Shown piece by piece: positions 3,894-11,362 of a stretch of 24,361 nucleotides of DNA. This DNA is from a virus (taxonomy: Duplodnaviria; Heunggongvirae; Uroviricota; Caudoviricetes), in IMG/VR virus record IMGVR_UViG_2700989535_000002, one strand, 5' to 3'. Below the pieces are notes generated by a model that was given only the letters and a program-made list of their open reading frames with translations, had not been told where the DNA came from and ran no database searches. A program made the translations under genes and the position numbers. The stretch's first letter is position 1, and each line of letters opens with the position of its first letter.

Positions 3894-4165
3894 GTATTCG
3901 TATTGAAATTGGCGAACGTTATGTCGTTACCAGTGACAGCTTTCAGTTTATTCTCCACGAGAAAAAGAGAGCGGAAAGCGGTAAAAACGCCGGTCAGGAA
4001 TGGCTGGCGGTGGTTGGTTATTACCCGAAATTAAGCCAGCTCGTTTCAGGCCTGATGCATCACGATATTCTGACCGGAAGCGCAAAGTCTTTTGCTGATT
4101 TAAACGTGCAGGTTGAGCAACTCAGCAAGCGTTGTTCAGAGGCTTTTGGCTCATATGGCCGTTAA
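3890..4165 (+). CDS. Small early protein (P2 orf83 position)
   Basis: 91-aa ORF coupled to neighbours; ends 11 nt inside A. Confidence 0.55.
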   Translation: MSIRIEIGERYVVTSDSFQFILHEKKRAESGKNAGQEWLAVVGYYPKLSQLVSGLMHHDILTGSAKSFADLNVQVEQLSKRCSEAFGSYGR

Positions 4166-6443
4166 AGCCTCCGGGCGTTTTGTCCCTCCGTCAGCATTTG
4201 CCGCAGGCACCGGTAAGGCGTTTACCGGTGCTTATGCATGGAACGCGCCACGCGAGGCTGTCGGGCGCGAAAGACCCCTTACACGTGATGAGATGCGTCA
4301 GGTGCAAGGTGTTTTATCCACGATTAACCGCCTGCCTTACTTTTTGCGCTCGCTGTTTACTTCACGCTATGACTACATCCGGCGCAATAAAAGCCCGGTG
4401 CACGGGTTTTATTTTCTCACATCCACTTTTCAGCGTCGTTTATGGCCGCGCATTGAGCGTGTGAATCAGCGCCATGAAATGAACACCGACGCGTCGTTGC
4501 TGTTTCTGGCAGAGCGTGACCATTATGCGCGTCTGCCGGGGATGAATGACAAGGAGCTGAAAAAGTTTGCCGCCCGTATCTCATCGCAGCTTTTCATGAT
4601 GTATGAGGAACTCTGCGATGCCTGGGTGGATGCGCATGGCGAAAAAGAATCGCTGTTTACGGATGAGGCGCAGGCTCACCTCTATGGTCATGTTGCTGGT
4701 GCTGCACGTGCTTTCAATATTTCCCCTCTCTACTGGAAAAAATACCGTAAAGGGCAGATGACCACGAGGCAGGCATATTCTGCCATTGCCCGTCTGTTTA
4801 ACGATGAGTGGTGGACCCATCAGCTTAAAGGCCAGCGTATGCGCTGGCATGAGGCGTTACTGATTGCTGTCGGGGAGGTCAATAAAGACCGTTCTCCTTA
4901 TGCCAGTAAACATGCCATTCGTGATGTGCGTGCACGCCGCCAGGCAAATCTGGAATTTCTTAAATCGTGTGATCTCGAAAACAGGGAAACCGGCGAGCGC
5001 ATCGACCTTATCAGTAAGGTGATGGGCAGTATTTCTAATCCTGAAATTCGCCGGATGGAGCTGATGAACACCATTGCCGGTATTGAGCGTTACGCCGCAG
5101 CAGAGGGTGATGTGGGGATGTTTATCACGCTGACCGCGCCGTCAAAGTATCACCCGACACGTCAGGTCAGAAAAGGCGAAAGTAAAACCGTCCAGCTAAA
5201 TCACGGCTGGAACGATGAGGCATTTAATCCAAAGGATGCGCAGCGTTATCTCTGCCGTATCTGGAGCCTGATGCGCACGGCATTCAAGGATAATGATTTA
5301 CAGGTCTACGGTTTGCGTGTCGTCGAGCCACACCACGACGGAACGCCGCACTGGCATATGATGCTTTTTTGTAATCCGCGCCAGCGTAACCAGATTATCG
5401 AAATCATGCGTCGCTATGCGCTCAAAGAGGATGGCGACGAAAGAGGAGCCGCGCGAAACCGTTTTCAGGCAAAACATCTTAACCGGGGCGGTGCTGCGGG
5501 ATATATCGCGAAATACATTTCAAAAAACATCGACGGCTATGCACTGGATGGTCAGCTCGATAACGACACCGGCAGGCCGCTGAAAGACACTGCAGCGGCT
5601 GTTAGCGCATGGGCGTCAACGTGGCGCATCCCGCAATTTAAAACGGTTGGCCTGCCGACAATGGGGGCTTACCGTGAACTACGCAAATTGCCGCGCGGCG
5701 TCAGCATTGCTGATGAGTTTGACGAGCGCGTCGAGGCTGCACGCGCCGCCGCAGACAGTGGTGATTTTGCGTTGTATATCAGCGCGCAGGGTGGGGCAAA
5801 TGTCCCGCGCGATTGTCAGACTGTCAGAGTCGCCCGTAGCCCGTCGGATGACGTTAACGAGTACGAGGAAGAAGTCGAGAGAGTGGTCGGCATTTACGCG
5901 CCGCATCTCGGCGCGCGTCATATTCATATCACCAGAACGACGGACTGGCGCATTGTGCCGAAAGTTCCGGTCGTTGAGCCTTTGACTTTAAAAAGCGGCA
6001 TCGCCGCGCCTCGGAGTCCTGTCAATAACTGTGGAAAGCTCACCGGCGGTAATACTTCGTTACCGGTTCCCACGCCTTCTGAGCACGCCGCAGCAGTGCT
6101 TAATCTGGTTGATGACGGTGTTATCGAATGGAATGACCCGGAGGTCGTGAGGACGCTCAGGGGTGCATTAAAACACGGACTGAGAAGACCAAACCGTCAG
6201 CAAAGAAACGGAAGCCCGTTAAAACCACATGAAATTGCGCCATCGGCCAGACTGACCCGGTCGGAACGAATGCAAATCACCCGTATCCGCGTTGACCTTG
6301 CTCAGAACGGTATCAGGCCGCAGCGATGGGAGCTTGAGGCGCTGGCGCGTGGGGCAACCGTAAATTATGGCGGAAAAAAATTCACGTATCTGGTTGCTAA
6401 TGAGTGGTTCGGGTTTCAAGATGACGTGTCATTTTTCATATAA
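4155..6443 (+). CDS. A: Replication initiation endonuclease A (rolling-circle initiator)
   Basis: 762 aa from ATG at 4155 (track ORF begins at 4113). Large last gene of the early operon, same position and nearly same size as P2 A. Contains HxH-like GTPHWHMM and tyrosine-rich GYIAKYISKN segments typical of rolling-circle initiators. Confidence 0.85.
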   Translation: MAVKASGRFVPPSAFAAGTGKAFTGAYAWNAPREAVGRERPLTRDEMRQVQGVLSTINRLPYFLRSLFTSRYDYIRRNKSPVHGFYFLTSTFQRRLWPRIERVNQRHEMNTDASLLFLAERDHYARLPGMNDKELKKFAARISSQLFMMYEELCDAWVDAHGEKESLFTDEAQAHLYGHVAGAARAFNISPLYWKKYRKGQMTTRQAYSAIARLFNDEWWTHQLKGQRMRWHEALLIAVGEVNKDRSPYASKHAIRDVRARRQANLEFLKSCDLENRETGERIDLISKVMGSISNPEIRRMELMNTIAGIERYAAAEGDVGMFITLTAPSKYHPTRQVRKGESKTVQLNHGWNDEAFNPKDAQRYLCRIWSLMRTAFKDNDLQVYGLRVVEPHHDGTPHWHMMLFCNPRQRNQIIEIMRRYALKEDGDERGAARNRFQAKHLNRGGAAGYIAKYISKNIDGYALDGQLDNDTGRPLKDTAAAVSAWASTWRIPQFKTVGLPTMGAYRELRKLPRGVSIADEFDERVEAARAAADSGDFALYISAQGGANVPRDCQTVRVARSPSDDVNEYEEEVERVVGIYAPHLGARHIHITRTTDWRIVPKVPVVEPLTLKSGIAAPRSPVNNCGKLTGGNTSLPVPTPSEHAAAVLNLVDDGVIEWNDPEVVRTLRGALKHGLRRPNRQQRNGSPLKPHEIAPSARLTRSERMQITRIRVDLAQNGIRPQRWELEALARGATVNYGGKKFTYLVANEWFGFQDDVSFFI

Positions 6444-6619
6444 AACATTTCAAAATTCAATGTAATGAAAGCATATCGTATATCGCTTTAATATGTGTTA
6501 TTCTTCTTGGTTGTTAATGTTTGATTTTATATGAAAAAATATTATATATAGAAAGATCAAATACAACGGTTTACTTGTTATGATGCAATTATTGGTTAGT
6601 TAGTGAGATACATCGCCAT

Positions 6620-6860
6620 CAATTGGGTATTTTTTACCCGTGGAAAGTTAACACTTTCTACCGTTTACCCCGCGCAACGCCCCTGCCAGCGACAAGAGTC
6701 ACAGGACCAGGTGGTATGGCGTATGGGAATTCGAACCCTTTGGGCGACAAAGGGTTCGTGGAGCAGGGAGCTAGTGCTGTTCAATCTCATCCTTATGAGG
6801 GCGAACCATAGTGTTGGAGCAGACATACCGTTTGCACACTATGGGCATAAGGAGCAAATC
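6620..6860 (+). ncRNA. Candidate structured RNA / long 5' leader upstream of the RT operon (possible retron msr-msd)
   Basis: GC-richer than the flanking AT-rich spacer. Perfect hairpins: GAAAGT/ACTTTC (6643-6658), CGAACCCTTTG/CAAAGGGTTCG (6732-6758), and a composite stem CCTTATG..CCATAGTGT / ACACTATGG..CATAAGG (6791-6852) whose 3' arm overlaps the downstream SD. a1/a2 repeats not identified, so retron ncRNA identity is unproven. Confidence 0.3.
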
Positions 6861-7016
6861 ATGAAGAATGATAAATTAACCAACGAACAGCAGGCGCAGA
6901 ACAAGTCAAACCTGAAAAAGAGGGCTGGTTATGCTTGGGAATTATTCAAATGGGGTATTAGACTGTTTGATTTAGTCACTCGAGCACTGGGCTACTTAGA
7001 AGGGGGTGGTGAGTAA
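6861..7016 (+). CDS. Small 51-aa protein of unknown function
   Basis: ATG at 6861 with strong SD AAGGAG 6 nt upstream; polar N-terminus, amphipathic C-terminus (AGYAWELFKWGIRLFDLVTRALGYL). The longer GTG-initiated track ORF (6603) is not supported. Confidence 0.4.
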   Translation: MKNDKLTNEQQAQNKSNLKKRAGYAWELFKWGIRLFDLVTRALGYLEGGGE

Positions 7017-7052
7017 TGCGTCCTCCCTAGTTTCAATAGCATGGAGTTGCCT

Positions 7053-7361
7053 ATGTTACATAAAGCCCTTCGTTTAATAAGGCAATACCATAAAGAATCA
7101 ATAGTTGAGTTATCTTCATCTTTAGGTATTCCAAAAGACAAAATAGTATCGCTTGAAAGCGGAGTTTGGTCACCGTCGATTGAAGTCTTAGAGCGTTACG
7201 CCTCCCATTTCGACATACCAGTATCCTCTTTAGTATTCTTTTCGGAATCATTAGGCACGCAAGGCCGTTTGTCTAAGCGATTGCGTTTAAATTTAGCCGG
7301 TAAAGTTCTGGATGTTCTGGAGTGGGTAAGTAATAAAAATGAAAAAACGGAAAAAGCTTAA
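7053..7361 (+). CDS. XRE-family helix-turn-helix DNA-binding protein
   Basis: 102 aa from ATG at 7053 (GGAG 6 nt upstream). HTH_3-like segment LSSSLGIPKDKIVSLESGVWSPSIEVLERYASHFDIP. Its 3' end overlaps the RT start by 23 nt. Confidence 0.6.
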   Translation: MLHKALRLIRQYHKESIVELSSSLGIPKDKIVSLESGVWSPSIEVLERYASHFDIPVSSLVFFSESLGTQGRLSKRLRLNLAGKVLDVLEWVSNKNEKTEKA

Positions 7362-8289
7362 GGTTAATACTAAAAATAAATCTTATGACATAATGGATTC
7401 GCCATTTTACAAACTCAAAAGTAAAAGAAAACTGGCGAATTTGCTTTGTGTTAGTCTTGAAGAATTATACTCTTTGAGAAAAGATGAAGGAAACTATTCC
7501 GTTTTTGAGCAACTTTCTAAAAAAGGAAAAGCACGAAAAATACAAAAGCCTTTAGAAAAACTAGAACTTGTACATACACGAATTGCAAGTTTGTTATCAC
7601 GGATTGCTTTGCCAGAATATCTGCACTCGGGGAAGAAGAAGTGCTCTAATGTGACGAATGCTAAAGCTCATCTTAATAATGAAAAGATGATGACAACAGA
7701 TATTAAAGCTTTTTTTCCATCAACTACAAGAGGGATGATATTTTCTTTTTTCTTTTCGGTGATGAAAATGTCATCTGATGTTGCTGATGTTTTGTCCCAC
7801 ATATGTACTTGTCATGACCGATTACCAACAGGTAGTCGCATCAGTATGCCGTTGGCATATTTTGCAAATTCAAGAATGTTTGGTGAAATATATCAACTTT
7901 GCCAAAAGTTACGAGTTAACATGACTGTTTATGTTGATGATCTCACTTTTTCAGGTGGTAACGTAAATCGATTGTTTTGCGCTGTAATTCGTAAGATCGT
8001 TAATAAGCATGGACATGTTATACACCCAACGAAAACAAAATTATATGCCAGAGATAAGCCTAAGTTGGTAACTGGAGTTATTGTATTCGGTAATGCTTTA
8101 AAAGTTAGGAATGAGCAGCATTTTTTGATGGCTAGGGAAATAGATTATTGGAAAATAATTAAAGACGCCGAAAATGCGAGAGAAACAATCATTGCCAAAA
8201 AGCTCTTTGGCCGTTTGCATTCAATGGGAGTGATTGAGCAACGTTACAAATCGAAGGTGCTTACTTTAAAGGCTAATACTGCAAATTAA
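7339..8289 (+). CDS. Reverse transcriptase, retron-type
   Basis: 316 aa. NAKAH (NAxxH), TDIKAFFPS, LPTGSRISMPLAYFAN, YVDDLTFS (YxDD catalytic motif) and LVTGVIV (VTG) align motif-by-motif with retron RTs such as Ec86 as recalled. Alternative start at 7393 possible. Confidence 0.8.
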   Translation: MKKRKKLKVNTKNKSYDIMDSPFYKLKSKRKLANLLCVSLEELYSLRKDEGNYSVFEQLSKKGKARKIQKPLEKLELVHTRIASLLSRIALPEYLHSGKKKCSNVTNAKAHLNNEKMMTTDIKAFFPSTTRGMIFSFFFSVMKMSSDVADVLSHICTCHDRLPTGSRISMPLAYFANSRMFGEIYQLCQKLRVNMTVYVDDLTFSGGNVNRLFCAVIRKIVNKHGHVIHPTKTKLYARDKPKLVTGVIVFGNALKVRNEQHFLMAREIDYWKIIKDAENARETIIAKKLFGRLHSMGVIEQRYKSKVLTLKANTAN

Positions 8290-8412
8290 CATATTGAATG
8301 TATTGCATAAAAGCATCAATAATTAAAATGACTTGGCGTTAGTAACGCCGCAAGTGCAGGAATTTACTTTCGATGCAGGCGGTGTTGATTAGAAACCTCA
8401 GAAAGTAGTTAG

Positions 8413-8850
8413 CTATGAAGCTGACGTCACAAAATTAACGCCAAGAGTCAACAGGTTTGTCACTGCTCCAGCAATTACACCTGGAGTTCCGTCTTTTACT
8501 GCACTGATAATTTTATCACCCATCGTTTCATTACCGCCAAGTGCTTCGGGTTTTTTGTTGAGCACCGCGAGTGCTTTCTCGGTCAGGCGCACATCATGAA
8601 AACCGGTCTGATGGTCTGTTCCGTACAGAATATAGCCGTTTTCGCTTAGGAAAGTGAATGTGCCATCAACCACACTACGCAACTGATTCAGTGCTTTCAT
8701 TTCTGGTGAGTTAAGTTGGTCAAAGTAGTCATCAGGTAACGCGGCGTTAAATTTTTTGTAGGTGATGACTTGTGGTACAGGAAAGTTATCCCATAGCACC
8801 GCAAAGATTTCTGCCGTCTGTTGGTTGAATAATTCGAGATTTTTGGACAT
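8413..8850 (-). CDS. Hypothetical tail-anchored membrane protein (145 aa)
   Basis: Minus-strand ORF with SD AGGGA 7 nt upstream of ATG; soluble N-terminal ~115 aa and C-terminal hydrophobic helix (GTPGVIAGAVTNLLTLGVNFV). Convergent with the RT operon. Confidence 0.6.
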   Translation of the reverse strand: MSKNLELFNQQTAEIFAVLWDNFPVPQVITYKKFNAALPDDYFDQLNSPEMKALNQLRSVVDGTFTFLSENGYILYGTDHQTGFHDVRLTEKALAVLNKKPEALGGNETMGDKIISAVKDGTPGVIAGAVTNLLTLGVNFVTSAS

Positions 8851-9386: not shown

Positions 9387-9461
9387 TGCCCGCATCCGTT
9401 GTTTTATGTTATTACTACATTGTTAAATTGGATGATTCTTATTTCTTGTGAGGAAGCTGTT

Positions 9462-10730
9462 ATGGCATTGATTGAAGGATTTCGAATATCAAATTTCAGG
9501 TCTCTGAAGAACGTTACGTTAGGAAAAACTTGGAACGATAGAACAAAGAAACCATTGACACCACTTACGGTTGTTATTGGGCGTAATGGTTCTGGAAAAA
9601 GTTCGCTTTTTGATGCATTTGGTTTCTTGGCTGATGCCCTTACCTATGGGGTAGAAGAAGCATGTCATAAGAATGGTCGCGGTGGCTTCGAACGCTTACG
9701 GTCTGCAGGGAGTAGTGAGGATATTGAATTCGAGATTTACTATAGAGAATCACCAAAAGACCGTCCAATCACATATGAATTGTCAATTGGCATTGATGCT
9801 ACTGGAAGACCTATAGTTAAGAAAGAAAGGTTGCGTCAGCGCAGGAGAGGTCAAAATAGAGGGTGGCCTTTCTCTTTTCTTGAATTATACAATGGAGTAG
9901 GAAAGGTTTGGTCAGGGGAATCTTTGTCAGAAAAAAATGAAGAGCATGGCAATATTGATGTTTTGTTAAGTGAAGAGTCTAATGGAACTATGCCAATCGA
10001 GCTAAGCAATACTCAAATGCTTGGTATTGCTACTTTAGGCAACTTGAAAGAGCATCCGAGAATAGCCAGATTCAGAAAATTTATTGAAGGCTGGTATCTT
10101 TCTTATTTTACTCCTGATGCTGCAAGAGATTTGCCTCGAGTTGGCCCGCAGAAACATCTAAATAGAATAGGTGATAACTTAGGCAATTTTGTTCAGTATA
10201 TGGAAAGAGAACATCCCAAAAAATTTAGACAGGTTCTTGAGGATATAGCCCTGAAGATTCCAGGAATTATAAAGATAGATACAGAAGCATCACCTGATGG
10301 AAGATTGCTTTTAAGGTTTTTTAACAAGGGTTTTGATAAACCATTTTATGCTCAACAAATATCTGATGGAACATTAAAACTGTTTGCTTACATGCTTCTC
10401 TTGGAAGATCCTGACCCTGCACCGTTTGTATGTATAGAGGAGCCAGAGAACGGCCTGTATCATAAATTATTACAATCTCTTGCAGAGGAATTTAGGAGCC
10501 ACGCTACAGGTAAGAAAGGTGATTCTCAGTTGTTTGTAACTACTCATCAACCATATTTTGTGGATGCACTCAATCCAGAGGAAGTATGGATATTAGAAAA
10601 AGAATCAGATGGCTTTTCCGTGCTGAGTAGAGCATCTGACTATCCTGATGTGATGGCAATGTATGAACAAGGATTGCCGTTAGGAAGTTTATGGTACAGT
10701 GATCACATTGATAGCAAGGAATTTGACTGA
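9462..10730 (+). CDS. ABC-type / AAA_21-like ATPase (OLD/AriA/AbiLi-like)
   Basis: 422 aa from ATG at 9462 (GAGGAAG SD; the track start at 9399 is TTG). N-terminal FRISNFRSL ... VVIGRNGSGKSSLFDAF (Walker A); C-terminal FVCIEEPENGLYH (Walker B/D-loop) and FVTTHQPYF (H-loop). Confidence 0.85.
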   Translation: MALIEGFRISNFRSLKNVTLGKTWNDRTKKPLTPLTVVIGRNGSGKSSLFDAFGFLADALTYGVEEACHKNGRGGFERLRSAGSSEDIEFEIYYRESPKDRPITYELSIGIDATGRPIVKKERLRQRRRGQNRGWPFSFLELYNGVGKVWSGESLSEKNEEHGNIDVLLSEESNGTMPIELSNTQMLGIATLGNLKEHPRIARFRKFIEGWYLSYFTPDAARDLPRVGPQKHLNRIGDNLGNFVQYMEREHPKKFRQVLEDIALKIPGIIKIDTEASPDGRLLLRFFNKGFDKPFYAQQISDGTLKLFAYMLLLEDPDPAPFVCIEEPENGLYHKLLQSLAEEFRSHATGKKGDSQLFVTTHQPYFVDALNPEEVWILEKESDGFSVLSRASDYPDVMAMYEQGLPLGSLWYSDHIDSKEFD

Positions 10731-11362
10731 TGCATTATGAGATCTTAGTCGAGGGACAATGTGAACTAACTGCTCTTTCAATTCTATTACCTAAGATTAT
10801 TGGAGAGTATAATAATCCACATACTTGGAAAATACATAAACATAGAGGTAATGGTTCTATTCCTGATAACCCAGCATTAGCTCCAAAAATTTCAGATACT
10901 TCACTCTTGGGGCAATTGCCTGCAAAATTAAGGGCTTACTCCAATAATCCAGACCCTAATAGAAAAGTGATTGTATTATTAGATCTAGATGATAAAGATC
11001 GAGAATCGTTCCATACGGCTCTAATTGACTTGTTAAAATATTGTTCGAATCCGTTTGATGTGTCATTTCCTTTTGCAGAAGAGGAATTAGAAGCATGGTA
11101 CCTTGGTGATAGACAAGCATTGATAGCTTACAATGCAAAAATCAATATGACAAAACTAAATGGCTATATTCAAGACTCAATATGTGATACATGGCGTTTT
11201 TTATTAGAGGCTGATGAGCCTTCACTGTTAAAACTGAAAAAGAAAGATAAAAGACTGCTTGAAAAGAAAGTTTTCTGGGCTAAAAAAATTACTCCTCATA
11301 TGGATGTTGATAGGAATTTATCGCCTAGTTTTAATAGTTTTAAAGAATGTTTGCATAATTAA
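10730..11362 (+). CDS. TOPRIM-like small protein (DUF4276/DUF4435-style) partnered with the ATPase
   Basis: 210 aa; start overlaps the ATPase stop (TGATG). N-terminal ILVEGQCE and VIVLLDLDD (DxD) resemble TOPRIM/OLD-family nuclease motifs; EEELEAWYLGD downstream. Confidence 0.6.
   Translation: MHYEILVEGQCELTALSILLPKIIGEYNNPHTWKIHKHRGNGSIPDNPALAPKISDTSLLGQLPAKLRAYSNNPDPNRKVIVLLDLDDKDRESFHTALIDLLKYCSNPFDVSFPFAEEELEAWYLGDRQALIAYNAKINMTKLNGYIQDSICDTWRFLLEADEPSLLKLKKKDKRLLEKKVFWAKKITPHMDVDRNLSPSFNSFKECLHN

What the first reader, a model, noticed from the sequence alone, without database searches (positions are those of the whole stretch)
6861..7016. Unannotated 51-aa ORF with a near-ideal SD between the structured RNA and the HTH gene
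AAGGAG sits 6 nt upstream of the ATG, but the product has no recognisable domain. It could be a small effector, a toxin-like peptide or an assembly factor of the RT system. Its placement inside a retron-like unit is unusual.
Basis: seen in the sequence. Interest (0 to 1): 0.5.

Follow-up and report, generated by a model that had tools for sequence, protein, structure and literature searches.

The report
Type VI retron small toxin gene
The 51-codon reading frame is real and conserved, and it is the already-described small toxic "SP" effector gene that sits inside the structured RNA of Type VI retrons, here carried by a P2-like prophage of E. coli, so the finding is correct but not new.

Summary
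The ORF is there as described: AAGGAG 6849-6854, a 6-nt spacer, ATG 6861, TAA 7014-7016, 51 aa. It is not a chance ORF. A 47-55 aa ORF with a Shine-Dalgarno (SD) site sits 34-52 nt before the HTH gene in all 15 related loci examined, from E. coli to Vibrio and Shewanella. Selection is frame-specific (pN/pS 0.44, against 0.81 and 0.94 in the other frames).

The neighbouring genes match PADLOC HTH_VI and RT_VI, so this is a Type VI retron in the gpA-portal hotspot of a P2-like prophage. Two preprints (Zhang et al. 2025, Retron-Vpa2 and Retron-Eco12; Garcia-Rodriguez et al. 2026, Retron-Sen3) show that this small protein (SP) is the retron's toxic effector.

The window's SP is homologous to the Vpa2 SP (hhalign 98%, E 3e-13). 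The RNA features reported for Vpa2 are also present:
- an SD-sequestering helix with compensatory changes;
- a long-range repeat that brackets the SP gene;
- paired GGGCGA direct repeats.

RefSeq already annotates the ORF as a hypothetical protein, and PHROGs holds it as an unknown-function family.

The likely mechanism is that SP translation is repressed within a hybrid RNA and released by phage-induced msDNA, with the HTH as co-repressor or antitoxin. That is inferred by homology and was not tested here.

The parts
6605..6860 (+). Non-coding 5' part of the hybrid RNA (msr-msd-like retron ncRNA). The 5' boundary is approximate. The msr/msd borders and the promoter were not determined.
   Evidence: This stretch aligns at nucleotide level across 15 loci, from E. 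coli to the Vpa2 locus. RNA fold z = -4.6. Conserved hairpins 6624-6640 and 6642-6659 show compensatory changes. A length-variable segment at about 6673-6723, closed by the 6669-6672/6724-6727 pairing, is a candidate msd stem (inference). There is no Rfam family.
6732..6758 (+). Perfect 11-bp hairpin whose loop carries direct repeat copy 1 (GGGCGA, 6742-6747).
   Evidence: Inverted repeat I1. The pairs covary (columns 215-232).
6759..6770 (+). 5' arm of the long-range inverted repeat that brackets the SP gene. It pairs with 7023-7035.
   Evidence: RNAalifold pairs at columns 237-248 with 556-568. 92-100% of cells are paired and 4 pairs change on both sides.
6775..6782 (+). Near-invariant ncRNA motif UGCUGUUC, which pairs with SP codons N8-E9-Q10-Q11 (6885-6892).
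   Evidence: Inverted repeat I7. 95.8% of cells are paired, with UA-to-GC and CG-to-UA compensatory changes.
6790..6797 (+). Anti-SD strand UCCUUAUG, which pairs with CAUAAGGA at 6846-6853 and sequesters the SP ribosome-binding site.
   Evidence: Inverted repeat I8. The pairing is present in the MFE fold. An equivalent duplex with lineage-specific compensatory sequence is found in all 15 loci.
6799..6804 (+). Direct repeat copy 2 (GGGCGA), immediately 3' of the anti-SD strand. It is the proposed landing site for the complementary msDNA segment.
   Evidence: The two copies change together across lineages: GGACGAA twice in the Vpa2 locus and GGGCGAG twice in Shewanella. They correspond to the conserved 7-nt direct repeats described by Zhang et al..
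6849..6854 (+). Shine-Dalgarno sequence AAGGAG of the SP gene, 6 nt before the ATG.
   Evidence: An SD-like sequence lies upstream of the ATG in every homologous locus.
6861..7016 (+). SP gene: a 51-aa small toxic effector of the Type VI retron (Vpa2/Eco12-type, 'Large' lineage).
   Evidence: The ORF is conserved in 15 of 15 loci. pN/pS is 0.44 in frame, against 0.81 and 0.94 out of frame, and the true frame has one stop against 3-8 in the others. hhalign against the Vibrio/Vpa2 group gives 98% probability, E 3e-13. The AF2 model is a single helix over residues 3-48 with pLDDT 77.5. RefSeq annotates it as WP_001762320.1. It matches phrog_15287.
7023..7035 (+). 3' arm of the long-range inverted repeat (CUCCCUAGUUUCA), in the 36-nt gap between the SP stop codon and the HTH start.
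   Evidence: This is the most conserved non-coding stretch downstream of the stop codon in alignment A2.
7053..7361 (+). Cro/C1-type HTH protein of the Type VI retron (102 aa): repressor and/or antitoxin partner of SP.
   Evidence: PADLOC HTH_VI, E 7.7e-31. The RefSeq start gives 102 aa. R7, the residue mutated in Vpa2 HTH(R7D), is conserved.
7339..8289 (+). Type VI retron reverse transcriptase (316 aa, YVDD at residues 198-201). It overlaps the HTH gene by 23 nt.
   Evidence: PADLOC RT_VI, E 2.8e-105. Pfam RVT_1. It is 55% identical to the RT of the Vpa2 locus. The RTs of the sister E. coli loci are labelled 'Large' in the published Type VI tree.

Best explanation
ORF 6861-7016 encodes the SP, the small toxic effector of a Type VI retron of the Vpa2/Eco12 ('Large') lineage. 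The retron is carried in the gpA-portal defence hotspot of a P2-like prophage. The SP gene is not a free-standing cistron. It is the 3' half of a roughly 430-450-nt 'hybrid RNA' whose 5' half is the retron's msr-msd-like template. In the resting state the SD (6849-6854) is paired with an upstream anti-SD strand (6790-6797). SP codons 8-11 pair with a near-invariant ncRNA motif, and a long-range repeat (6759-6770 with 7023-7035) closes the whole SP gene into the RNA scaffold, so little SP is made. The HTH and RT proteins bind this RNA, and the HTH holds reverse transcription down. On infection, phage recombination or anti-RecBCD functions let msDNA accumulate. The msDNA segment complementary to the GGGCGA repeat is proposed to anneal next to the anti-SD strand and free the ribosome-binding site. 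SP is then translated, and its amphipathic C-terminal helix arrests growth of the infected cell (abortive infection). Shown here: ORF conservation, frame-specific selection, homology to the Vpa2 SP, family assignment of the HTH and RT, and covariation of the helices and repeats. Inferred from the Vpa2 and Sen3 experiments: toxicity, translational repression, msDNA-dependent release, the role of the HTH, and the triggers. The confidence given applies mainly to the identity of the gene as the retron's SP effector (about 0.93 on its own). The Vpa2-type control mode specifically is about 0.55-0.6.
For: Family: HTH_VI 7.7e-31 and RT_VI 2.8e-105. The RTs of the 96%-, 86%- and 74%-identical E. coli loci (WP_000746343.1, WP_053270700.1, WP_001461245.1) are labelled 'Large', the Vpa2 lineage, in the published tree file. 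Coding: an ORF of 47-55 aa with an SD lies 34-52 nt before the HTH gene in 15 of 15 loci across four kinds of genomic context. The only indel among the close relatives is in-frame (Kosakonia, 3 codons). Pairwise dN/dS is 0.08-0.6. Pooled pN/pS is 0.44 in frame, against 0.81 and 0.94. Homology to a tested toxin: locus L015 encodes a 55-aa ORF with K15, I39, F43 and F45, and an HTH with R7, exactly the residues mutated in Retron-Vpa2. Its sequence agrees with the Vpa2 SP fragments printed in Table S3. The profile of the enterobacterial SPs matches the group containing it with 98% probability, E 3e-13. Shape: a single long helix with pLDDT 77.5. The N-terminal half is basic (+4) and the C-terminal helix is amphipathic (muH 0.77). 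RNA: z = -4.6. An SD/anti-SD duplex with compensatory changes is present in all 15 loci. The named helices are 91% paired against 48-62% when slid, with 8 pairs changed on both sides and 0 of 500 shuffles as high. The direct repeats co-vary. [quoted passage not shown] Retron-Eco12 from E. coli defends against lambda-vir.
Against: Nothing was tested experimentally on this locus, and I could not obtain the Eco12 sequence to see whether it is the same element. In Retron-Sen3 the SP is made constitutively although its SD is also predicted to be sequestered, so a sequestering helix does not prove translational repression. The strong conservation of SP residues 1-20 is confounded by RNA pairing of the same nucleotides. 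The C-terminal half evolves fairly fast (pN/pS 0.54). The AF2 pTM is low (0.34) and the alignment is shallow (6 sequences). No sigma-70-like promoter was found on the + strand upstream. Two rare disrupted alleles exist in databases (P0003 and P0007).
Confidence: 0.85

Rival explanations
1. Same gene and same toxin, but controlled as in Retron-Sen3. SP is translated constitutively and is neutralised post-translationally by the HTH antitoxin. Phage inhibition of RecBCD releases it, and msDNA levels do not change. This is partly compatible with the best explanation, because both layers of control could coexist.
For: Sen3 experiments: an HTH frameshift cannot be maintained, the SP-HTH pair behaves as a toxin-antitoxin module without RT or ncRNA, and SP is detected under basal conditions. 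The window SP has a strongly amphipathic C-terminal helix (muH 0.77). That helix aligns locally with the Sen3-type helix: WELFKWGIRLFDLVTRALG against GELVFRALRITDIAIRAVS, 32% identity over 19 residues, pairwise E 0.0065. Garcia-Rodriguez et al. report this amphipathic feature as absent from Vpa2.
Against: The RT lineage, SP length, SP N-terminus, C-terminal EGG[D/G]E motif and the alignable ncRNA all place the locus with Vpa2 and not with cl2075/Sen3. The hhalign probability against cl2075 is only 5.9%. Eco12, the E. coli relative, gave no detectable basal msDNA, like Vpa2 and unlike Sen3.
Confidence: 0.3
2. The ORF is not translated. Its conservation merely reflects selection on the RNA structure of the retron transcript.
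For: SP codons 8-13 and the stop-codon region take part in conserved helices. The adjacent non-coding RNA also yields spuriously 'conserved' peptides such as MGIRTLWATKGSW. Garcia-Rodriguez et al. report RNA structural selection within SP coding sequences.
Against: The excess of synonymous change is specific to this frame (0.44 against 0.81 and 0.94). The true frame has one stop against 3-8 in the other frames. The ATG, SD and length are conserved at RT identities down to 48%. Protein-level profile similarity persists where the DNA has diverged. Early stop or frameshift mutations in the Vpa2 and Sen3 SPs abolish toxicity or defence.
Confidence: 0.03
3. The real product is the longer in-frame protein: 97 aa from ATG 6723, as in phrog_5826, or 137 aa from GTG 6603.
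For: The frame is open back to 6603 in this window. A 97-aa PHROG family exists.
Against: The upstream extension is interrupted by stops or lies in another frame in the E. coli C5, Yersinia, Dickeya, Acerihabitans, Providencia, Aeromonas, Vibrio and Shewanella loci. There is no SD before 6723 or 6603. The extension overlaps the conserved structured ncRNA. RefSeq calls the 51-aa form.
Confidence: 0.02
4. An independent type I toxin-antitoxin-like membrane peptide (Hok/TisB-like) that merely sits next to the retron.
For: It is small and helical with a hydrophobic C-terminus, and it sits in an mRNA whose 5' and 3' parts fold back over the SD, as in hok mRNA. The hok comparison comes from my own knowledge of that system.
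Against: There is no Pfam hit, HOK_GEF included. The best 19-residue hydropathy is 0.79, below the usual transmembrane threshold of about 1.6. The ORF travels strictly with HTH_VI and RT_VI through unrelated genomic contexts: P2 prophages, a yeiP-side island, loci next to QatB-, HipA- or type IV secretion-family genes, and a Mu-like phage. No antisense RNA was sought or seen.
Confidence: 0.02

Closest known systems
SP of Retron-Vpa2 (Vibrio parahaemolyticus; Zhang et al. 2025, bioRxiv 10.1101/2025.10.22.683967)
   Same: The position is the same (ncRNA-SP-HTH-RT, one strand), the size is similar (55 against 51 aa) and both are predicted to be helical. Both share an N-terminal polar/basic segment with the QQ motif and a C-terminal [FL][ED]GG[GD][ET] tail. 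The RTs are 55% identical. The ncRNA is alignable, with the same SD-sequestering helix, the same long-range repeat after the stop codon and the same paired direct repeats.
   Different: Only about 16% of the hhalign-aligned columns are identical. The Vpa2 C-terminus is aromatic-rich and weakly amphipathic, whereas the window's is a charged-face amphipathic helix. The hosts and contexts differ: a Vibrio chromosomal island next to a HipA-family gene, against a P2-like prophage. The window locus itself is untested.
Retron-Eco12 (E. coli Type VI retron tested by Zhang et al. 2025)
   Same: It is an E. coli Type VI retron related to Vpa2, with an SP that was modelled alongside the Vpa2 SP. It gives no basal msDNA and defends against lambda-vir. 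The window locus, or one of its three E. coli sister variants, may be this element.
   Different: Identity could not be checked, because no Eco12 sequence or accession is in the held text or supplements. At least four E. coli variants exist, at 99.9%, 96%, 86% and 74% nucleotide identity.
SP of Retron-Sen3 and the cl2075 cluster (Garcia-Rodriguez et al. 2026, bioRxiv 10.64898/2026.04.27.721009)
   Same: It has the same operon slot and the same role as the retron's toxin. The SP gene is also embedded in a structured transcript, with a repeat after the stop codon. There is a local resemblance in the C-terminal amphipathic helix, R-h-x-D-h-x-x-R-A/L-h.
   Different: The Sen3 SP is 79 aa with a 25-residue N-terminal extension and ends in DWMK, not EGGxE. 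It belongs to a different RT subclade (cl2075, against 'Large'). The profile match is not significant (5.9%). Sen3 makes msDNA and SP constitutively.
Fold-back-repressed type I toxin mRNAs (for example hok/sok)
   Same: It works in a similar way: a small toxic peptide whose ribosome-binding site is hidden by long-range pairing within its own mRNA until a nucleic-acid event refolds it (and my own knowledge of hok).
   Different: It is not a member. There is no HOK_GEF match, no predicted transmembrane helix, and no antisense RNA was sought. The proposed activator is a reverse-transcribed ssDNA rather than mRNA processing.

Membership tests
Type VI retron (Mestre et al. 2020 classification; PADLOC retron VI) | Reverse transcriptase of the Type VI clade | tested here: met
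   RT_VI E 2.8e-105, with the next best model (RT_III-A) at 4.7e-45. The RTs of the sister E. coli loci are named in the published Type VI tree as 'Large'.
Type VI retron (Mestre et al. 2020 classification; PADLOC retron VI) | Cro/C1-type HTH gene immediately upstream of, or overlapping, the RT gene | tested here: met
   HTH_VI E 7.7e-31. There is a 23-nt overlap with the RT gene.
Type VI retron (Mestre et al. 2020 classification; PADLOC retron VI) | Structured ncRNA template upstream on the same strand | tested here: met
   Fold z = -4.6. 40 of 71 consensus pairs show compensatory change in at least one sequence. There is no Rfam model for it.
Type VI retron (Mestre et al. 2020 classification; PADLOC retron VI) | RT-dependent msDNA synthesis and phage defence | not testable with these tools
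   These need wet-lab assays. They are shown only for Vpa2, Eco12 and Sen3 in the literature.
Vpa2/Eco12-type SP toxin encoded in a hybrid RNA | Small ORF between the ncRNA and the HTH gene, same strand, with its own SD | tested here: met
Vpa2/Eco12-type SP toxin encoded in a hybrid RNA | Sequence homology to the Vpa2 SP | tested here: met
   hhalign 98% probability, E 3e-13 over 49 columns. The Vpa2 identity of L015 was checked through K15, I39, F43, F45 and HTH R7, and through Table S3. Both profiles are small (10 and 5 sequences).
Vpa2/Eco12-type SP toxin encoded in a hybrid RNA | Helical protein with a hydrophobic C-terminal helix | tested here: met
   AF2 helix over residues 3-48, pLDDT 77.5. 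The KD maximum lies at residues 33-43.
Vpa2/Eco12-type SP toxin encoded in a hybrid RNA | RBS sequestered in a conserved stem of the hybrid RNA | tested here: met
   6790-6797 pairs with 6846-6853. A lineage-specific complementary pair is present in 15 of 15 loci.
Vpa2/Eco12-type SP toxin encoded in a hybrid RNA | Start codon sequestered in a stem | tested here: inconclusive
   The MFE fold puts AUCAU (6857-6861) in a 5-bp hairpin with AUGAU (6867-6871). Covariation was not tested.
Vpa2/Eco12-type SP toxin encoded in a hybrid RNA | [quoted passage not shown] | tested here: met
   6759-6770 pairs with 7023-7035, 92-100% paired, with compensatory changes.
Vpa2/Eco12-type SP toxin encoded in a hybrid RNA | Conserved short direct repeats, one in an msd loop and one in the riboregulator loop | tested here: met
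   GGGCGA at 6742 and 6799. The two copies change together in the Vpa2 locus and in Shewanella.
Vpa2/Eco12-type SP toxin encoded in a hybrid RNA | Toxic when expressed alone, with translation dependent on msDNA or a phage trigger | not testable with these tools
   Shown for Vpa2 only.
cl2075 (Sen3-type) SP | About 79 aa with a roughly 25-residue N-terminal extension, and sequence similarity to Sen3, Yersinia and Xenorhabdus SPs | tested here: not met
   The window SP is 51 aa. hhalign probability is 5.9% and covers only a 19-residue local match. The reference sequences were rebuilt from Table S3 and are approximate.
cl2075 (Sen3-type) SP | Associated RT in the cl2075 subclade | tested here: not met
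   The sister-locus RTs carry the 'Large_' label in the published tree.
Hok/Gef-type or other type I TA membrane toxins | Family HMM match and a transmembrane helix | tested here: not met
   No Pfam hit. The best 19-residue KD mean is 0.79.

The most novel reading that the evidence does not exclude
The enterobacterial 51-aa SP may be a bridging form under double control. It has the Vpa2-type hybrid-RNA riboregulator (SD helix and msDNA-complementary repeat), but also a Sen3-like charged amphipathic C-terminal helix that could be bound and neutralised by the HTH. If so, the two published and apparently conflicting Type VI mechanisms would be two layers of one ancestral system. A related point is that SP codons 8-13 (NEQQAQ) serve both as peptide and as one strand of a conserved helix with the near-invariant UGCUGUUC motif, which couples toxin sequence to RNA switching.
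Probability: 0.25. Interest if true: 0.45.

Novelty: already known. Interest (0 to 1): 0.2.

Why it matters
For annotation, about 100 of 5,426 complete E. coli genomes and several P2-like phage records carry this gene labelled 'hypothetical protein'. It can now be named as the SP toxin of a Type VI retron, and the surrounding 450 nt as its hybrid RNA. For biology, it adds nothing new in principle beyond the 2025-2026 preprints. The E. coli/P2 version is still a convenient native-host model for deciding between the two proposed control modes, translational derepression by msDNA and post-translational neutralisation by the HTH. The way the SP kills remains unknown.

Tried and rejected
- Rfam permissive scan of 6300-8500: no family.
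- Pfam, NCBIfam and PADLOC on the SP: no hits.
- Genome-contig scan with the RT: only two distant loci, Acinetobacter and Flavobacterium, which were not used further.
- Promoter and terminator scan of 6400-7100: nothing on the + strand, so the transcription start is left undetermined.
- Attempts to obtain the Retron-Eco12 sequence or accession from text and supplements failed, so identity with Eco12 is open.
- Membership in the cl2075/Sen3 SP cluster was considered and rejected.
- Two loci (L006, L012) appeared to have a truncated RT beside an intact SP and HTH. Translation showed the RT is intact and the 147-aa call is a gene-calling artefact.
- The longer 97-aa and 137-aa reading of the frame was rejected because the extension is not conserved.
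- The third large protein search and the representative-library search were not spent, because the literature and 15 loci already answered the question.

Full report
OBSERVATION. The sequence shows AAGGAG at 6849-6854, a 6-nt spacer, ATG at 6861 and TAA at 7014-7016. The product is 51 aa: MKNDKLTNEQQAQNKSNLKKRAGYAWELFKWGIRLFDLVTRALGYLEGGGE. AAGGAG-N6-ATG occurs twice in the window, against 0.21 expected. The region 6600-7052 folds far better than shuffles (z = -4.6).

'Unannotated' applies only to the raw window. In the 99.9%-identical RefSeq locus, PGAP calls exactly this ORF (WP_001762320.1, hypothetical protein). It also matches PHROG phrog_15287 (51 aa, unknown function, E 1.7e-32). Pfam, NCBIfam and PADLOC have nothing for it.

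CONTEXT. The two genes downstream are a Cro/C1-type HTH (PADLOC HTH_VI, 7.7e-31) and a reverse transcriptase (RT_VI, 2.8e-105). Together they define a Type VI retron. The HTH most likely starts at 7053, as in RefSeq, and not at 7041.

The window is a P2-like prophage. It carries an integrase (583-1596), the replication endonuclease gpA (4113-6443), and then portal, terminase, scaffold and capsid genes from 11731 onward. The retron therefore lies in the variable region between gpA and the portal gene. A second candidate defence pair, HEC-01A/B, sits beside it.

The same retron is present in 100 of 5,426 complete E. coli genomes and in sequenced P2-like phages of Klebsiella.

IS IT A GENE? I collected 15 loci with RT identities from 98% down to 48%. 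They come from four E. coli variants, Enterobacter, Citrobacter, Kosakonia, Yersinia, Dickeya, Acerihabitans, Providencia, Aeromonas, two Vibrio strains and a Shewanella Mu-like phage. Their contexts differ: P2 prophages, a chromosomal island beside yeiP, loci next to QatB-, HipA- or type IV secretion-family genes, and a Mu-like phage.
- Every locus has a 47-55 aa ORF with an SD ending 34-52 nt before the HTH start, including two loci where no gene had been called.
- The upstream in-frame extension seen in the window is not conserved.
- Pairwise dN/dS is 0.08-0.6.
- Pooled pN/pS is 0.44 in the ORF's frame, against 0.81 and 0.94 in the other two.
- The true frame carries only its terminal stop, against 3-8 stops in the other frames.

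Two database alleles are frameshifted, but they are single-member clusters.

WHAT IS IT? Two preprints describe this element.
- Zhang et al. 2025 (10.1101/2025.10.22.683967) show that in Retron-Vpa2 the ncRNA and a small-protein (SP) coding sequence form one 'hybrid RNA'. SP alone is toxic and K15* abolishes toxicity. The RBS and AUG are sequestered. msDNA is needed for SP translation, and supplying it in trans is enough to induce it. RT, HTH and the RNA form a complex. Lambda Red beta+exo trigger the system. An E. coli relative, Retron-Eco12, also defends against phage.
- Garcia-Rodriguez et al. 2026 (10.64898/2026.04.27.721009) show for Retron-Sen3 that SP is the toxin and the HTH its antitoxin. 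In that retron both SP and ssDNA are made constitutively, and RecBCD inhibition is the trigger.

Locus L015 encodes a 55-aa ORF with K15, I39, F43 and F45, and an HTH with R7, exactly the residues mutated in the Vpa2 work. It agrees with the Vpa2 SP fragments printed in Table S3. A profile of the ten enterobacterial SPs matches the group containing it with 98% probability (E 3e-13). Shared features are the N-terminal QQ motif, a basic patch and the C-terminal [FL][ED]GG[GD][ET] tail.

The RTs of the three sister E. coli loci appear in the published Type VI tree under the 'Large' label, the lineage of Vpa2. The window SP is not a cl2075/Sen3-type SP. It has 51 aa rather than 79, a different RT subclade, and an hhalign probability of 5.9%.

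RNA ANATOMY. The ncRNA aligns at nucleotide level from E. coli to the Vpa2 locus. Four features reported for the Vpa2 hybrid RNA are present.
- The SD is paired with an upstream strand (6790-6797 with 6846-6853). Each of the 15 loci has its own complementary version.
- The near-invariant motif UGCUGUUC (6775-6782) pairs with SP codons 8-11 (6885-6892).
- A long-range repeat (6759-6770 with 7023-7035) brackets the SP gene.
- GGGCGA occurs twice, in the loop of hairpin 6732-6758 and just 3' of the anti-SD strand. The two copies change together in other lineages.

On the named helices, 91% of cells pair, against 48-62% when the partners are slid. Eight pairs change on both sides, and 0 of 500 shuffles reach that. 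These controls are indicative, not probabilities.

PROTEIN. AF2 gives one long helix over residues 3-48 (pLDDT 77.5, pTM 0.34, shallow alignment). The N-terminal half is polar and basic (+4). Residues 26-46 form a strongly amphipathic helix (muH 0.77), and no 19-residue window reaches transmembrane hydropathy. That helix aligns locally with the amphipathic helix of Sen3-type SPs (32% over 19 residues, not significant). Garcia-Rodriguez et al. report this feature as lacking in Vpa2.

MECHANISM. I commit to the Vpa2-type model. SP is translationally repressed inside the hybrid RNA. The HTH and RT bind the RNA, and the HTH restrains reverse transcription. Phage recombination or anti-RecBCD functions let msDNA accumulate. 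msDNA complementary to the GGGCGA repeat anneals beside the anti-SD strand and frees the RBS. SP is then made and arrests the cell.

Identity of the gene is well supported (about 0.93). The control mode is inferred by homology (about 0.55-0.6), and the Sen3-type post-translational control (rival, 0.3) may replace or add to it. How SP kills is unknown.

VERDICT. However, the arrangement is canonical for Type VI retrons and is already described, so novelty and interest are low.

Noticed in passing
window 8413-8850 (- strand): A 145-aa ORF of unknown function (phrog_2266, E 1.2e-60; no Pfam, PADLOC or NCBIfam hit). It lies convergent to the RT gene. An ORF of 143-162 aa occupies the same position and strand beside the retron in P2-like prophages of E. 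coli, Enterobacter and Citrobacter (L001, L004, L010, L011), but not in the non-P2 loci. It could be a hotspot passenger or a retron accessory.
   Followed up: partly
window 9399-11362 (+ strand): A second candidate defence pair in the same prophage hotspot: a 443-aa AAA_21/AbiEii-like ATPase (PADLOC HEC-01A, E 2.6e-190) and a 210-aa DUF4276 protein (HEC-01B, E 7.5e-81), with adjoining reading frames. In other P2-like prophages that carry the same retron, different cargo occupies this slot.
   Followed up: partly
window 6603-6860 and 6716-6811: ORF finders extend the SP frame upstream to 97 or 137 aa, and phrog_5826 is built on the 97-aa call. They also report a 31-aa ORF. The apparent peptide conservation of these (MGIRTLWATKGSW..., MAYGNSNPLGD...) across genera comes from the conserved retron ncRNA and not from coding.
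   Followed up: yes
window 7041-7053: The mechanical ORF for the HTH starts at ATG 7041. The conserved start, with GGAG 6 nt upstream, is ATG 7053 (102 aa), as annotated in RefSeq. The PADLOC match also begins at residue 5 of the longer form.
   Followed up: yes
window 6984-7027: The codons for the conserved C-terminal EGG (GAAGGGGGU) are G-rich and could pair with the CCUCCC of the repeat arm just after the stop codon. This would be an alternative to that arm's long-range pairing with 6766-6770. It might be part of a switch, and it might partly explain why the EGG tail is so conserved. It was not tested.
   Followed up: no
P0003 and P0007 (database alleles of the SP): There are two single-member variant alleles. 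One E. coli allele has a frameshift near the C-terminus that reads through to 71 aa. Another is frameshifted after K20. They may be sequencing errors or decayed copies.
   Followed up: no
L009 (E. coli C5), L019 (Dickeya), L020 (Acerihabitans), L023 (Shewanella Mu-like phage): The same ncRNA-SP-HTH-RT module moves between very different carriers: a P2 prophage hotspot, a chromosomal island beside yeiP, a locus next to QatB-family and other defence-like genes, a locus beside type IV secretion genes, and the middle of a Mu-like phage genome. This suggests it is mobile as a unit of about 1.7 kb.
   Followed up: partly
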